A stretch of 64,000 bases of DNA from Octopus vulgaris (lineage: Eukaryota). Of the stretch, positions 2,527-47,407 are shown piece by piece. The DNA lies in NCBI GenBank assembly GCA_951406725.2, contig OX597826.1, positions 32,674,001 through 32,738,000 on the forward strand, read 5' to 3'. How positions within the stretch are numbered: position 1 is the stretch's first letter; each line of letters begins with the position of its first letter. A program made the translations under genes and the position numbers. The notes beneath the pieces were generated by a model, which searched no databases, was not told the DNA's origin, and worked only from the letters and a program-made list of their open reading frames with translations.

Positions 2527-3060
2527 GCTGAGCCTGACAGAGGCAATGACGAAAGACCAAGACCTCTGGAGATATGCTATGACTGCAAAGACCCAGCAAA
2601 TAAAGTGAGTTCACAGCTGAAACCTACACCAGTGTTGAATAACCAACCCACTCAAAAAGTACCCTGGATCGCAGGGTGACCTGCTGTGCTTGAGGAGACC
2701 TATTGAGTCAAGTATATCAACATCAAAATCAAATGGAAATTGTAGTTGTGATCCCTGTGCCAGTGGCATGTAAAAAGCACCATCCAAACAAGGTCGATGC
2801 CAATGCCGCCTTGACTGGCTTCCGTGCTGGTGGCACGTAAAAAACACCAACCGATCGTGGTCATTGCCAGACTCCTCTGGTGGTACATAAAAAGCACCCA
2901 CTGCACTCTCAGAGTGGTTAGCATTAGGAAGGGCATCCAGCTGTAGAAACACTGCCAGATCAGAGTGAAGCCTGGTGCAGCCTCCTGGCTTCTCAGGCTC
3001 CAGTCAAACCGTCCAACCCATACCAACATGGAAAACGAACTTTAAACAATGATGATGATG
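2527..3060 (+). mobile_element. RTE LINE 3' end (ORF C-terminus, 3' UTR, (GAT)n tail)
   Basis: LSLTEAMTKDQDLWRYAMTAKTQQ parallels LGLTKEMTEDRVLWKCAVHERTRQD of the 43839 element; the UTR has GGTGGCACGTAAAAA-CACC modules, GGAAGGGCATCCAGCTGTAGAAAC and a GAT tail. Confidence 0.85.
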
Positions 3061-22949: not shown

Positions 22950-23179
22950 CAAACGAGGTCGTTGCCAATGCCGCTGGACTGACTCCTGTGCAGGTGGCAT
23001 GTAAAAGCACCCACTACACTCTCGGAGTGGTTGGCATTAGGAAGGGCATCCAGCAGTAGAAACTCTGCCAGATCAGATTGGAGCCTGGTGCAGCCATCTG
23101 GTTTGCCAGTCCTCATTCAAATCGTCCAACCCATACCAGCATGGAAAGCAGACGTTAAACGATGATAATGATGATGATG

Positions 23180-23180
<1 letters not shown>
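22950..23180 (+). mobile_element. RTE 3' UTR fragment with (GAT)n tail
   Basis: GTGCAGGTGGCATGTAAAAGCACCCACTACACTCTCGGAGTGGTTGGCATTAGGAAGGGCATCCAGC. Related fragments at 37220-37385 (-), 39272-39500 (-), 40470-40625 (-) and 50295-50520 (+). Confidence 0.85.
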
Positions 23181-34965: not shown

Positions 34966-35009
<44 letters not shown>

Positions 35010-35067
35010 TAATAATAATAACAATAATCGTTTAATGTCCACTTTCCATGCTGGCCATGACAGCAAT

Positions 35068-35903: not shown

Positions 35904-36805
35904 GGTGAGCACATGAGATGATAAAATGCTTAGCAATATGTCTTTGAGATCTTTACATTCTGAGTTCATATTCTGCCGAGGTAGACTTAGCATTTCATCC
36001 TTTTTGGGGTTGATAAAAAAAAGTACCGGCTAGGCACTGAGGGGACAATGTAATCGATTTACCTCCTCCCTCGAACTTGCACCAAAATTTGAAACCGTTA
36101 TCATTGAGCTGGCAGAATCATTAGCACACTGGGTGAAGTGCTTAGTGGTATTTTGTCTGTTGCTATGTTGTGAGTTCAAATTCTGCTGTGGTTGACTTTG
36201 CCTTTAATCTTTTTGGGGCTGATAAATTAAGTACCAGTGAAACACTGGGGTCGATGTAATCAACTAGTTCCCTCCCTCCAAAGTTCAGCACTTGTGCCTT
36301 TAGTAGCAAAGATTTCCATTATCATTATTAAGATGGCGAACTTGCAGACTCGTTAGCATGCTGGGCTAAATGCTTAATGGTATTTTGCCTGTTGCTACGT
36401 TCTGAGTTCAAATTCTGCCATGATTGACTTTGCCTTTCATCCTTTCAGGGTGACAAATTAAGTACCAGTTGAACACTGGGGTCGATGTAATTGAAACATA
36501 CCCTTCCCCCAAAGTGACTGCCCATGGGGTAAAATTTGAAACCATTATTATTATTATTATTATTGTTGTTGTTGTTGTTGTTGCTGTTATTAAAGCAGTG
36601 AGCTGGCAGAACTGTTAGCATGTTGGACGAAACGCTTAGCAGTATTTAACCTGTCGCTACATTTTGAGTTCAAATTCCAATGAGGTCAACTTTGCCTTTC
36701 ATCCTTTCAGGGTTGATAAATTAAGTACCAGTGAAACACTGGGGTCGATGTAATCGATTAGTGCCCTCCTTCCCAAATTTGAGGCATGTGCCTCCAGTAG
36801 AAAGG

Positions 36806-36810
<5 letters not shown>
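35902..36810 (+). mobile_element. Train of four head-to-tail SINE family B copies
   Basis: Units start near 35902, 36104, 36329 and 36592, each with TGAGTTCAAATTC...ACTTTGCCTTT(C)ATC...AAGTACC...CACTG, separated by ATT-rich linkers; further copies at 36905-37128 (-) and 37464-37680 (+). Confidence 0.85.
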
Positions 36811-36864
<54 letters not shown>

Positions 36865-37184: not shown

Positions 37185-37215
<31 letters not shown>

Positions 37216-37417
37216 CATTATTCGTCATTTAACGTCTGTTTTCCAAGCTAGCAATGGATGGATGGTTCTACTGGGGTCTGGAAAGCCAGGAGGCTGCACC
37301 AGGCCCCAATCTTATCTGGCAGTGTTTCTACAGCTGGATGCCCTTCCTAATGCCAACCACTCTGGGAGTGTAGTGGGTGCTTTTTATTATTATTGTTATT
37401 GTTGTTGTTGTTGTTAT

Positions 37418-39266: not shown

Positions 39267-40095
39267 TATATCATCATCATCATCATCATCATCATCATTT
39301 AACGTCCGTTTTCCGTGCTAGCACGGGTTGGACGTTTGACTGGGGTCTGGGGAGCAGGGACTGCCCCAGGCTCCAGTCTGATCTGGCAGTTTTTTCTACA
39401 GCTGGATGCCCTTCCTAACGCCAACCACTCCGCGAGTGTAGTGGGTGCTTTTTACGTGCCACCTGCACAGGTGCCAGAGGGGTCTGGCATCGGCCCACGA
39501 TCGGTTATTGCCTTTTTTCGTTGCATTGCGGCAGGGGGGGGGAGGGTTCCGGCAGAGAGGAGAGAGGGAGAGGGAGAGAGAGTGGTGGGGGGTGCATGTA
39601 ATATAGGGGAGCACCAGTGGGGAAGGTTTGGGGTAAAGAGAAACGATGACAGGTAGGGTTGGTGGCAGGTTCTAGACAGAATGAAAAGTAGGAAGTAAAA
39701 CGTAGGATATCAAGAGTGGGGAGGGGGCTGGAAGGAGATAGCCGGTTGAGGCAGTGACACATTTCAAAACAGGAGGAACATAAGATAACAGGTTAAGTGG
39801 GACGTTTGATGAGCTGCAGCGCCAGCTGCTTCTGTCCAGGGGGAGAGAGGCAGGGGTAAAATACATAATGAGAAAGTATATTGAGGAGGAGGGGTAGGAG
39901 GAACAGACACACGTAGTGGTGGCGGTGGTAGAGGGGATATCCGGTGAGGATGGTGTAAACAGAGTGTTCTCCGGTATGGGTGAATCAAAATCTTCGCAGC
40001 CCGCAATTCGTTCGCGGTTTAAATTCTTAAAAATTTTTTAAAATGCCTCGGTATGAAGATATTTCGTTCGTCCTCCGCCATTACTTTCAATCAAA

Positions 40096-40165: not shown

Positions 40166-40639
40166 ACCCCTTCTTGACCACACAGCGATGATCATAGCAA
40201 GCAAGCTAAGAATTCTCATTTCATCTCTTCCTCACTCTTGTACTACACACATACATTTGCTGCTAACCCTTAAATGTTCGAATCTATTCACTAATTCTGC
40301 TTGTTCTTAAAATATAACCCTTTAATTTGTTTATCCCCTCGGTACCAAGTTAATTTGTTTGTTACTCTGTTCATTTCTTCAAACACCAATTGTTTTAAGT
40401 CTACTGTCCCCAATCAAAATCTTCGCAGCCATATATATATATATATACATACATATATATATATATCATCATCATTATCATCACCATCATCTTCGTTTAG
40501 CATCTGATTTCCATGTTGCATGGGTTGGATGGTGTTGACTAAGAACTGGCAAGCTGGGAGGTTGCACCAGGCTTCAGTCTAATTTGGCAAGGTTTCTACA
40601 GCTGGATGCCCTTCCTGATGCCAATATATATATATTGAG

Positions 40640-43657: not shown

Positions 43658-43838
43658 TATATGCATTGTTGTAAGTGTGTATGCATGTAATACTATTTTA
43701 CATTGGAACAAAACCTAAATATACATACCTTCAGACATGCATAATCATAAAGACATGTATACACATACACTCACATACACAGACACAAAGATATATATAT
43801 ATAGATATATTTTTATATATATATTTGTATATATGTAT

Positions 43839-44357
43839 GTAACTGCTAGAGTAAGAATAGCCTGGGCAAAGTTTAGAGAGCTCTTACCCCTGCTGGTGAC
43901 AAAAGGCCTCTCGCTAAGAGTAAAAGGCAGACTATATGATGCGTGTGTACGTACAGCCATGCTACATGGTAGTGAAACATGGGCCGTGACTGCTGAGGAT
44001 ATGCGTAAGCTTGCAAGAAATGAAGCCAGTATGCTCCGATGGATGTGTAATGTCAGTGTTCATAATCGTCAGAGTGTAAGTACTTTGAGAGAAAAGTTGA
44101 ACCTAAGAAGTGTCAGTTGTGGTGTGCAAGAGAGACGGCTGCGCTGGTATGGTCATGTGACGAGAATGGCTGAAGATAGTTGTGTGCAAAAGTGCTACAC
44201 CCTAGCAGTTGAGGGAACCTGTGGAAGAGGTAGACCCAGGAAAACCTGGGACGAGGTGGTGAAGCACGACCTTCGAACTTTAGGTCTCACCAAGGAAATG
44301 ACTGAAGACCGAGTCCTATGGAAGTGTGCTGTGCATGAGAGGACCCGGCAGGACTAG
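43839..44357 (+). CDS. RTE-clade ORF2 C-terminal fragment (no native start; 5' truncated)
   Basis: ARVRIAWAKFREL...KGRLYDACVRTAMLHGSETW...RRLRWYGHV.RM...GRGRPRKTW...DRVLW are RTE hallmark motifs; uninterrupted for ~172 codons. Confidence 0.9.
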   Translation, partial: VTARVRIAWAKFRELLPLLVTKGLSLRVKGRLYDACVRTAMLHGSETWAVTAEDMRKLARNEASMLRWMCNVSVHNRQSVSTLREKLNLRSVSCGVQERRLRWYGHVTRMAEDSCVQKCYTLAVEGTCGRGRPRKTWDEVVKHDLRTLGLTKEMTEDRVLWKCAVHERTRQD

Positions 44358-47105
44358 TCAGGCCATATCCCGTGGCCCCTACCTGGGACGTAGTCGATCC
44401 ACCTGTGCATTCCTTCTTTCTTGTGACACTTGTGAAGACCTGCTGAGGCAAGTGAAAATCAATCAAAATAGATGAACATCAATGGAATTTGTATCTTTGT
44501 GGTACCAGTGCCTGTGGCACACAAGAAAACCATCCGAACGTGGCCGTAGCCAGTACCGCATCGACTGGCCTCCGTGCTGTGGGAACATGGTGGCACATAA
44601 AAACACCATCCGAAGACCCGGCAAGACTAGTCAGGTCATAACCCGTGGCCCCTACCTGGGACGTAGTCAGTCCACCTGTACATACCTTCCTTCTTGTGAC
44701 ACTTGTGAAGACCTGTTGAGGCAAGTGAAAATCAAAACAAATCAAAATAGATGAACATCAATGGAATTTGTATCTTTGTGGTACCAGTGCCGGTGGCACA
44801 CAAGAATCCATCCGAACGTGGCCGTAGTCAGTACCGCATCACTGGCCATCGTGCTGTGGGCACATAACAAACACCATCCGATCGTGGCCGTTCGCCAGCC
44901 TCATCTAGCACCTGTGTCGGTGGCACATAAAAACACCATCCGAAGACCCGGCAAGACTAGTCAGGCCATAACCCATGGCCCCTACCTGGGACGTAGTCAG
45001 TCCACCTGTGCATACCTTCCTCCTTGTGATACTTGTGAAGGCCTGTTGAGGCAAGTGAAAATCAAAACAAATCAAAATAGATGAACATCAATGGAATTTG
45101 TATCTTTGTGGTACCAGTGCCGGTGGCACACAAGAGAAAACCATCCGAAAGTGGCCGTAGCCAGTACCGCATCGACTGGCCTCCGTGCTGTGGGTGCATG
45201 ACAAACACCATCCGATCGTGGCCGTTCGCCAGCCTCATCTAGCACCTGTGTCGGTGGCACATAAAAACACCATCCGAAGACCCGGCAAGACTAGTCAGGC
45301 CATATCCCATGGCCCCTACCTGGGACGTAGTCAGTCCACCTGTGCATATCTTCCTTCTTGTGACACTTGTGAAGACCTGTTGAGGCAAGTGAAAATCAAA
45401 ATCAAAACAAATCAAAATAGATGAACATCAATGGAATCTGTATCTTTGTGGTACCAGTGCCGGTGGCACACAAGAGAACCATCCGAACGTGGCCGTAGCC
45501 AGTTCCGCATAGACTGGCCTCCGTGCTGTGGGCACGTAACAAACACCATCCGATCATGGCCGTTCGCCAGCCTCATCTAGCACCTGTGTCGGTGGCACAT
45601 AAAAACACCATCCGAAGACCCGGCAAGACTAGTCAGTCCACCTGTGCAAACCTTCCTTCTTGTGACACTTGTGAAGACCTGTTGAGGCAAGTGAAAATCA
45701 AATCAAATCAAATCAAAATAGATGAACATCAATGGAATTTGTATTTTGTAGTACCAGTGCCTGTGGCACACAAGAAATCCATCCGAACGTGGCCGTAGTC
45801 AGTACCGCATCGACTGGCCATCGTGCTGTGGGCACATAACAAACACCATCCGATCGTGGCCGTTCGCCAGCCACATCTAGCACCTGTGTCGGTGGCACAT
45901 AAAAACACCATCCAAAGACCCGGCAAGACTAGTCAGGCCATATCCCATGGCCCCTACCTGGGACGTAGTCAGTCCACCTGTGCATACCTTCCTCCTTGTG
46001 ATACTTGTGAAGGCCTGTTGAGGCAAGTGAAAATCAAAATGAAATCAAAACAAATCAAATCAAATCAAATCAAAACAAATCAAAATAGATGAACATTAAT
46101 GGAATTGTATCTTTGTGGTACCAGTGCCGGTGGCACACAAGAAATCCATCCGAACGTGGCCGTAGTCAGTACCGCATCGACTGGCCATCGTGCTGTGGGC
46201 ACATAACAAACACCATCCGATCGTGGCCGTTCGCCAGCCACATCTAGCACCTGTGTCGGTGGCACATAAAAACACCATCCGAAGACCCGGCAAGACTAGT
46301 CAGGCCATATCCCATGGCCCCTACCTGGGACGTAGTCAGTCCACCTGTGCATACCTTCCTCCTTGTGATACTTGTGAAGGCCTGTTGAGGCAAGTGAAAA
46401 TCAAAATGAAATCAAAACAAATCAAATCAAATCAAATCAAAACAAATCAAAATAGATGAACATTAATGGAATTGTATCTTTGTGGTACCAGTGCCGGTGG
46501 CACACAAGAAAACCATCTGAACGTGGCCGTAGCCAGTACCGCACCGACTGGCCTCCGTGCTGTGGGCACGTAACAAACACCATCCGATCGTGGCCGTTCG
46601 CCAGCCTCATCTGGCACCTGTGTCGGTGGCACATAAAAACACCATCCGAAGACCCGGCAAGACTAGTCAGGCCATAACCTGTGGCCCCTACCTGGGACAT
46701 AGTCAGTCCACCTGTGCATACCTTCCTTCTTGTGACACTTGTGAAGACCTGTTGAGGCAAGTGAAAATCAAAACAAATCAAAATAGATGAACATCAATGG
46801 AATTTGTATCTTTGTGGTACCAGTGCCGGTGGCACGTGGCACACAAGAAAACCATCCGAACGTGGCCGTAGCCAGTACCGCATCGACTGGCCTCCGTGCT
46901 CTGGGCATGTAACAAACACCATCCGATCGTGGCCGTTTGCCAGCCTCATCTGGCACCTGTGTCGGTGGCACATAAAAACACCATCCGAGCGTGGCCGTCT
47001 GCCAGCCTCGTCTGGCACCTGTGTCGGTGGCACATAAAAAACACCATCCGAGCGTGGCCGTTTGCCAGCCTCGTCTGGCACCTGTGTCGGTGGCACATAA
47101 AATCA
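44342..47105 (+). repeat. Tandem array of 8 units (273-367 bp) derived from the RTE stop codon and 3' UTR
   Basis: Units start GACCCGGCA at 44342, 44615, 44945, 45279, 45617, 45917, 46284 and 46651. Confidence 0.95.
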
Positions 47106-47295
47106 CCCACTACACTCTCGGAGTGGTTGGCGTTAGGAAGGGCATCCAGCTGTAGAAACACTGCCAGATCTGACTGGACTGGTGCAGCTTTCGGGCTCCC
47201 CAGACCCCAGTTGAACCGTCCAACCCATGCTAGCATGGAAAGCGGACGTTAAATGATGATGATGATGATGATGATGATTATTATTAAAACACATT

Positions 47296-47350
<55 letters not shown>

Positions 47351-47364
47351 ATATATATATAAGC

Positions 47365-47407
<43 letters not shown>

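What the first reader, a model, noticed from the sequence alone, without database searches (positions are those of the whole stretch)
44342..47105. RTE retrotransposon 3' UTR amplified into an 8-unit tandem array inside an otherwise normal element
Seen: directly after an uninterrupted RTE ORF2 fragment, the last codons (TRQD*) plus proximal 3' UTR are repeated 8 times (273, 330, 334, 338, 300, 367, 367 and ~337 bp), after which the element ends normally in its (GAT)n tail. Units differ by a variable (AAATC)n, loss of one ~60 bp sub-module (unit 1), a deletion between two TAGTCAG direct repeats (unit 5), and a near-identical pair (units 6-7). Related elements at 2527-3060 and 22950-23180 have no such array. 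Inference: either a satellite being born from a LINE by unequal exchange, or a LINE variant that carries a multimerised structured UTR in its RNA, for example by repeated template jumps during reverse transcription.
Basis: partly seen in the sequence, partly recalled or inferred. Interest (0 to 1): 0.78.

Follow-up and report, generated by a model that had tools for sequence, protein, structure and literature searches.

The report
LINE family carrying a tandem tail
The repeat block is real but is not a one-off: it is the normal, inherited 3' end of a young family of jumping genes found at hundreds of places in this genome, and this copy has likely gained one extra repeat after it inserted; no function for the repeats is shown.

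Summary
The 8-unit array is real but is not a local event. Its unit junction occurs 1,666 times genome-wide. All 69 of 69 examined copies sharing the window's ORF end carry 2-10 units (mode 6). Units are orthologous by position: 372 of 393 are closer to a unit at another locus than to any neighbour. Array type tracks ORF haplotype, and copies with intact ~1,040-codon APE-RT ORFs carry the array. So the array travels in the LINE RNA. Seven window units are inherited, including the 'variant' units 1 and 5. Unit 6 is a private 367-bp duplication, out of register with the units (1 mismatch in 382 bp). Both copies carry a locus-private mutation, which favours DNA-level duplication after insertion over template jumps, though an assembly error is not excluded. 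No satellite-scale expansion was found, no ribozyme, and no folding above chance (z 0.17). Monomeric sister subfamilies also spread recently, so the array is dispensable. Verdict: an RTE-like LINE with a fast-changing 3' UTR VNTR, analogous to mouse L1 monomers and Ogre arrays.

The parts
43839..44357 (+). 3' end of the LINE ORF (172 codons, ending TRQD*); the copy is 5'-truncated at about 43838, next to a (TA)-rich microsatellite
   Evidence: homology to other copies extends about 524 bp upstream of unit 1; full ORFs in L169 and L179 carry APE + RT + PHD-like domains
44342..44614 (+). unit 1 (273 bp, lacks module M2); inherited form
   Evidence: first unit is 267-289 bp in 54 of 69 lineage copies; 2 differences from its orthologue elsewhere
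44615..45616 (+). units 2-4 (330, 334, 338 bp); inherited
   Evidence: units 2 and 3 have 0-difference orthologues at unlinked loci; unit 4 best-matches the same rank at 5-13 differences
45617..45916 (+). unit 5 with the 36-bp TAGTCAG deletion; inherited
   Evidence: deletion unit present in 49 of 69 lineage copies
45763..46511 (+). locus-private 367-bp tandem duplication (45763-46144 = 46130-46511, 1 mismatch); it creates chimeric unit 6 (45917-46283: 5' half of unit 7, 3' half of unit 5)
46284..46988 (+). units 7 and 8; inherited
   Evidence: orthologues at 1 and 3 differences
44604..44634 (+). unit junction: start of a 62-bp module joined to the last ORF codons through a 2-bp GA overlap; the same breakpoint in all subfamilies seen
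   Evidence: 1,666 exact matches in G000, reversed control 0
46975..47102 (+). two terminal 62-63-bp modules (M3), each with two short conserved hairpins
47103..47285 (+). single-copy 3' terminal segment and (TGA)n/(TTA)n tail
   Evidence: 4,608 exact module-terminus junctions in G000

Best explanation
This is a 5'-truncated copy of a young RTE-like LINE subfamily whose members all carry a tandem array in the 3' UTR, so the array is very likely copied as part of the element's RNA, and this copy has likely gained one more unit by DNA-level duplication after insertion. Steps: (1) Inferred: one ancestral duplication joined a 62-bp module to the last ORF codons through a 2-bp overlap. (2) Inferred: homology between units then drove gains and losses by unequal sister exchange or replication slippage inside single arrays. 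(3) Shown: rearranged arrays are shared by groups of unlinked copies and track ORF haplotypes, so some rearranged copies became sources. (4) Shown: copies keep the 3' terminus and are cut at varied points inside the array or ORF, as target-primed reverse transcription predicts. (5) Inferred: the array is a tolerated passenger. The single-copy terminus is untouched, and monomeric sister subfamilies also spread.
For: 1,666 exact junctions on both strands; the first 100 fall in 52 separate loci. 52 of 52 of these end in module(s) + terminus; 15 have the ORF end joined to unit 1 and 37 begin inside the array (read by eye; loci were chosen for having a junction). 69 of 69 copies chosen only by the ORF end have 2-10 units. 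Nearest unit lies at another locus for 372 of 393 units (median 2 differences, against 13 within the array); 370 of 393 are at the same rank. 75 diagnostic ORF sites split copies into two clean haplotypes, each with its own array type, with almost no mosaics. Uninterrupted ORFs of about 1,050 codons in L169 (4 units) and L179 (7 units). Post-insertion gain: in 6 loci with a private duplication, all 11 sample-private variants inside the first block are also in the second. Of 4 tested genome-wide, 3 were locus-private (L154: 2 hits only; window and L180: the third hit lay in another unit or subfamily context). The junction is bridged by 31 or more letters on both sides in independent contig sets X2, X7 and X20.
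Against: A falsely duplicated block in an assembly would also share private variants, so unit 6 needs long reads. The fourth tested variant (L185) was shared with a sibling copy L207, so some 'private' variants are inherited from unsampled sources. Duplicated blocks are not all identical (0-4 mismatches), so some gains could be as old as the insertion. Clear target-site duplications were seen in only one copy (L155, 28 bp) because many insert into (TA)n. Transcription is not shown: no listed run is on record as RNA. Neutrality is argued, not tested. The tree's bootstrap had not settled.
Confidence: 0.8

Rival explanations
1. The array travels in the RNA, but unit gains and losses arise mainly during reverse transcription, by template jumps between units of the same RNA.
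For: Architecture is very diverse: 52 module strings among 69 copies, 45 of them singletons, at about 0.3% private divergence. This mechanism is proposed for mouse L1 monomers (bioRxiv 10.1101/2022.08.06.500894, passages). One tested variant was inherited (L185).
Against: Two passes over one RNA should not copy a mutation that arose after insertion, yet 3 of 4 tested variants are locus-private and in both blocks. ORF mosaics between subfamilies are nearly absent, so jumps between different RNAs are rare.
Confidence: 0.2
2. The array is selected at the level of the element, as a multivalent binding platform for the ORF protein or a host factor, or as a 3' enhancer.
For: It is kept in all five array-bearing subfamilies seen while units diverged by 3-7%. 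Module hairpins are 93.7% paired across 16 diverged modules. The 5' UTR is also duplicated in several full-length copies.
Against: Whole-unit folding z = 0.17. Covariation is not above shuffles (88 of 500). Units tolerate many deletions. Monomeric copies are young too: 6 of 30 terminus-anchored loci, and 2 of 30 ORF-end loci of another subfamily.
Confidence: 0.12
3. A satellite DNA is being born at this locus by local unequal exchange.
For: One unit is locus-private. Ogre 3' arrays gave rise to satellites in Lathyrus (PMC7004042, passages).
Against: Seven of eight units are inherited. Eight units is within the family range of 2-10. The first 100 junction hits cover 108 Mb, which would extrapolate to about 2,600, more than the 1,666 found, so no large block of exact junctions is hidden. 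The 62-bp module averages 1.6 per terminus (7,286 vs 4,608). Units within arrays are not homogenised.
Confidence: 0.03
4. The array is an assembly artefact.
For: No long reads could be laid. Near-identical private blocks are what mis-assembly makes.
Against: Units differ by 9-20 changes and recur in the same order at unlinked loci. The junction is present in independent public contig sets. Only unit 6 remains open (my estimate: 25% artefact).
Confidence: 0.02

Closest known systems
[quoted passage not shown]
   Same: A LINE carries a variable number of tandem ~200-bp units that are retrotransposed; unequal crossing-over, slippage and template switching are the proposed causes.
   Different: Those units are 5' promoters with additive activity. 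Here the units are 3', include the ORF's last codons and stop, keep a fixed order of diverged units, and have no shown function.
Ogre LTR-retrotransposon tandem arrays downstream of gag-pol (Vondrak et al., PMC7004042, passages; Macas 2009 seen only as a reference)
   Same: Short tandem arrays sit at a fixed place downstream of the coding region and spread with the element.
   Different: Ogre is an LTR element, and its arrays expanded into true satellites; no expanded array was found here.
Bov-A2, dimer of a BovB (RTE)-derived unit (PMC5786205, passages)
   Same: Multimerisation of RTE-derived sequence that is then retrotransposed.
   Different: Bov-A2 is a non-autonomous dimer of an internally deleted LINE. 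Here the multimer lies inside ORF-bearing elements and reaches 10 units.
Octopus RTE-2_OV and recently active octopus RTE families (PMC9115989, passages; PMC13282606, text parts 1-2 of 3 and supplement search)
   Same: Single-ORF APE-RT LINE with a zinc-binding motif, recently active, if the host is an octopus (recalled from sequence character, not shown by a call).
   Different: RTE-2_OV has a 1,109-aa ORF and a 3' UTR described as mostly microsatellite; this ORF is about 1,040 aa with a 0.7-3.4-kb array. Neither text seen describes such an array. The 2026 consensus library (13 active RTE families) could not be seen and may contain this family.

Membership tests
RTE-clade LINE | One long ORF with N-terminal AP endonuclease and reverse transcriptase (definition recalled) | tested here: met
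   L169 and L179, 1,041 aa: Exo_endo_phos E 1e-8/1e-7 at 37-247; RVT_1 E about 3e-32 at 566-766
RTE-clade LINE | No separate ORF1 and no RNase H domain (recalled) | tested here: inconclusive
   No RNase H Pfam hit. About 770 bp of repeat-rich 5' sequence was inspected by eye but not scanned for an ORF1.
RTE-clade LINE | 3' end in short tandem repeats, not poly(A); frequent 5' truncation | tested here: met
   (TGA)n tails across the lineage; graded 5' truncation
RTE-clade LINE | RT groups with named RTE elements in a phylogeny | not testable with these tools
   Homologues (at most 59% identical) carried no informative names; no Repbase or Dfam set was available
RTE-clade LINE | Target-site duplications | tested here: inconclusive
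   One clear 28-bp TSD (L155); most ends lie in (TA)n, and the window shows none
Satellite DNA | Long arrays independent of the parent element, homogenised within arrays | tested here: not met
   At most 10 units and 3.4 kb; always followed by the LINE terminus; 372 of 393 units closer to another locus
Retrozyme or ribozyme-bearing tandem repeat | Hammerhead, HDV-like, twister or other ribozyme in each unit | tested here: not met
   Rfam scan of 43800-47400 to E 10: all 10 hits lie outside the array, none is a ribozyme. Undescribed ribozymes are not excluded.
Structured cis-acting RNA | Folding or covariation above chance | tested here: inconclusive
   z 0.17 and -0.83; two hairpins 93.7% paired and lost on sliding, but covariation is not above shuffles

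The most novel reading that the evidence does not exclude
The LINE has evolved a higher-order repeat 3' UTR that raises its own fitness: multiplied hairpin modules act as a multivalent landing pad for its single ORF protein or a host factor. Array-bearing subfamilies would then out-replicate monomeric ones, the 3' counterpart of mouse L1 promoter monomers.
Probability: 0.12. Interest if true: 0.72.

Novelty: new variant of a known kind. Interest (0 to 1): 0.4.

Why it matters
It shows a LINE lineage that has kept retrotransposing while carrying 0.7-3.4 kb of ordered tandem repeat between stop codon and tail. Several hundred dispersed copies start from known array states and are dated by their flanking ORF sequence. 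That makes a natural experiment on how fast 300-bp tandem units are gained and lost, and on why such arrays do or do not become satellites. In practice, short-read assemblies and consensus builders will collapse or split this family, which affects counts of active octopus-type RTEs and insertion calling. The window's copy is itself an ordinary dead fragment.

Tried and rejected
Ribozyme: no Rfam match in the array. Pfam on the window's 172-aa fragment alone: nothing. RNA editing: A>G at 44907 in the RNA-guess runs is the common family base, so it was rejected. Expression: no RNA holder listed; contigs of four RNA-guess runs cover the unit, but they may be DNA and give no strand or level. One search found a different subfamily (84 hits; 28 of 30 examined multi-unit, 2 monomeric). 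The second hit of the unit-6 pattern (L206) is a recurrent change in a unit-7 orthologue, not the duplication. One count (deletion unit in 69 of 69) was a regex error; the right figure is 49 of 69. The length-binned architecture count was too fine and was replaced. ORF lengths were out of frame and were redone. RNAalifold gave a weak consensus with 1 of 12 pairs compensated. Earlier scan notes: none by sequence, words or place. Literature: nine searches listed no paper describing this array. Motif searches in supplements found nothing, but four files of PMC9115989 were skipped (one of them searched later, cut), two were too large, and Repbase, Dfam and the Zenodo library were out of reach.

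Full report
Observation. The array is as described: eight units starting at 44342, 44615, 44945, 45279, 45617, 45917, 46284 and 46651, 92.0-97.5% identical, between a stop-free ORF end and a single terminal segment with a (TGA)n tail. Each unit runs from the last ORF codons through a 115-bp segment, an AAATC tract, a 63-bp segment and two 62-65-bp modules, and then joins back to the ORF end. The window's array-less relatives are 77-87% identical and belong to older families.

It is a family trait. The junction occurs 1,666 times in G000 (779 forward, 887 reverse, control 0). The first 100 hits fall in 52 loci, which extrapolates to roughly 870 loci. All 52 were fetched. Each ends in modules plus the terminus; 15 have the ORF end joined to unit 1 and 37 start at varied points inside the array (read by eye). 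These loci were chosen for having a junction, so I also searched by ORF end alone. The window's ORF-end variant has 124 exact hits. I examined 60 newly fetched ones, 8 earlier loci and the window. All 69 have an array: 2 units in 1, 3 in 1, 4 in 9, 5 in 18, 6 in 27, 7 in 7, 8 in 4, 9 in 1 and 10 in 1; length 739-3,441 bp, median 2,241. Another ORF-end variant has 84 hits; 28 of 30 examined are multi-unit, most sharing one 4-unit design, and 2 are monomeric. Among 30 loci anchored on the terminus (4,608 hits), 4 showed arrays, 6 were monomeric with an ORF end 89-90% identical, and 20 were too short or unclear.

The array is inherited as a whole. Window units differ from each other by 9-20 changes but from their best match elsewhere by 0-5. 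The order 1-2-3-4-5-7-8 recurs in L144, L146, L148, L160, L178 and L179 (there the fifth unit is the deletion unit, scored nearest to unit 2). Over all 393 units, 372 are closer to another locus, 12 to their own array and 9 tie; 370 match a unit of the same rank. The short unit 1 is in 54 of 69 copies and the TAGTCAG deletion unit in 49 of 69. Seventy-five ORF sites define two haplotypes; the 45 copies typed are nearly all pure, and each haplotype goes with its own array design. A tree of the last 480 ORF bases agrees, with rough support values. Uninterrupted ORFs of about 1,050 codons reach the array in L169 and L179 and encode AP endonuclease, reverse transcriptase and a PHD-like finger below Pfam's cut-off. 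Contigs from independent public runs bridge the junction with at least 31 letters on each side in X2, X7 and X20, 3 of 8 runs laid, so it is not an artefact of one assembly.

What is private to the window. Unit 6 has no orthologue. Positions 45763-46144 repeat at +367 with one mismatch, a duplication out of register with the units. A pattern marking it has one other hit, which proved to be a recurrent point change. To time such gains I looked for variants private to one locus among those fetched. Ten of 69 loci had a near-perfect duplicated block of 170 bp or more. In six of them the first block held 11 private variants, all also present in the second block; the other four held none. Four were tested genome-wide. 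L154: two hits only. Window: one extra hit in a different unit. L180: one extra hit in a monomeric subfamily. L185: shared with a sibling in the same context, so inherited and uninformative. Three of four therefore put the mutation before the duplication and after the insertion, which points to unequal exchange or slippage in DNA. The test cannot tell this from a falsely duplicated block; the 1-4 mismatches between blocks in most cases argue mildly against that.

Mechanism. All subfamilies share one breakpoint, with only GA common to both sides (sequence), so one founding duplication is inferred. Its cause (template jump or break repair) cannot be told. After that, unit homology allows gains and losses: 52 module strings among 69 copies, 45 seen once, 24 copies in shared classes. 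Some singletons may reflect alignment thresholds, unsampled sources or assembly errors. Shared derived designs, such as the one in L152, L157, L162, L165, L181 and L196, show that rearranged copies became sources. Median terminal branch length is 0.0039. If the host is an octopus (recalled, not shown) and the rate of 0.0036 per Myr quoted in PMC13282606 applies, copies are about 1 Myr old and the units split about 4-10 Myr ago; both figures are rough.

Not a satellite, and no function shown. No array exceeds 10 units; the genome-wide junction count is below what the first 108 Mb predict; the 62-bp module averages 1.6 per terminus. Rfam finds no ribozyme. A unit folds at z 0.17 and the 3' end at z -0.83. 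Two 5-bp hairpins per module are 93.7% paired across 16 diverged modules and are lost when slid, but covariation is within shuffles. Young monomeric relatives exist. A tolerated passenger is the best reading; selection on the array stays possible.

Comparison. It works like mouse L1 5' monomer arrays (passages) and Ogre 3' arrays (passages), and recalls the BovB-derived dimer Bov-A2 (passages). The anatomy fits the RTE clade, but no RT tree with named elements could be built. RTE-2_OV differs in ORF length and 3' UTR (passages). A 2026 octopus repeat annotation lists 13 recently active RTE families without describing such arrays (text parts 1-2 of 3); its consensus library was not visible and may hold this family. 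A review (PMC12988792, passages) does not mention it in the passages seen. Nine paper searches listed no description; subscription journals, Repbase and Dfam were not searched.

Verdict. Observation confirmed; interpretation partly supported. New variant of a known kind; interest 0.40.

Noticed in passing
L200, L184, L169, L170, upstream of the ORF: The 5' UTR is itself duplicated in several full-length copies (repeat of about 630-700 bp in L200 and L184), like L1 promoter monomers. Two 5' UTR types go with the two ORF haplotypes.
   Followed up: partly
3' flanks of 69 lineage copies: 36 of 69 tails run directly into TATATA, against 1.4% of flank positions: a strong (TA)n target bias, or microsatellite seeding. 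A link between RTE tail repeats and target choice is proposed in PMC6007223 (abstract).
   Followed up: partly
P0001 539-582; L179 ORF 782-825: A PHD-like cysteine finger lies just after the RT domain (below Pfam's cut-off); many homologues also carry PF00628.
   Followed up: no
L031, L037, L083-L112; L137: Nested repeats: a 35-bp hairpin-like piece of the unit is itself tandemly amplified in two subfamilies, and the 62-bp module reaches 10 copies in L137.
   Followed up: no
window 36112-36826: Another repeat of 232-262 bp occurs in tandem at about 77% identity, possibly clustered SINE copies.
   Followed up: no
window 39270-39504 and 37196-37384 (minus strand), 34998-35055, 40465-40624: More short 3' fragments of the same LINE group, 77-87% identical.
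   Followed up: no
L033, L069, L143, L185, L190: Copies nested in or next to other copies of the family; L064 has an N gap at the element's 5' side.
   Followed up: no
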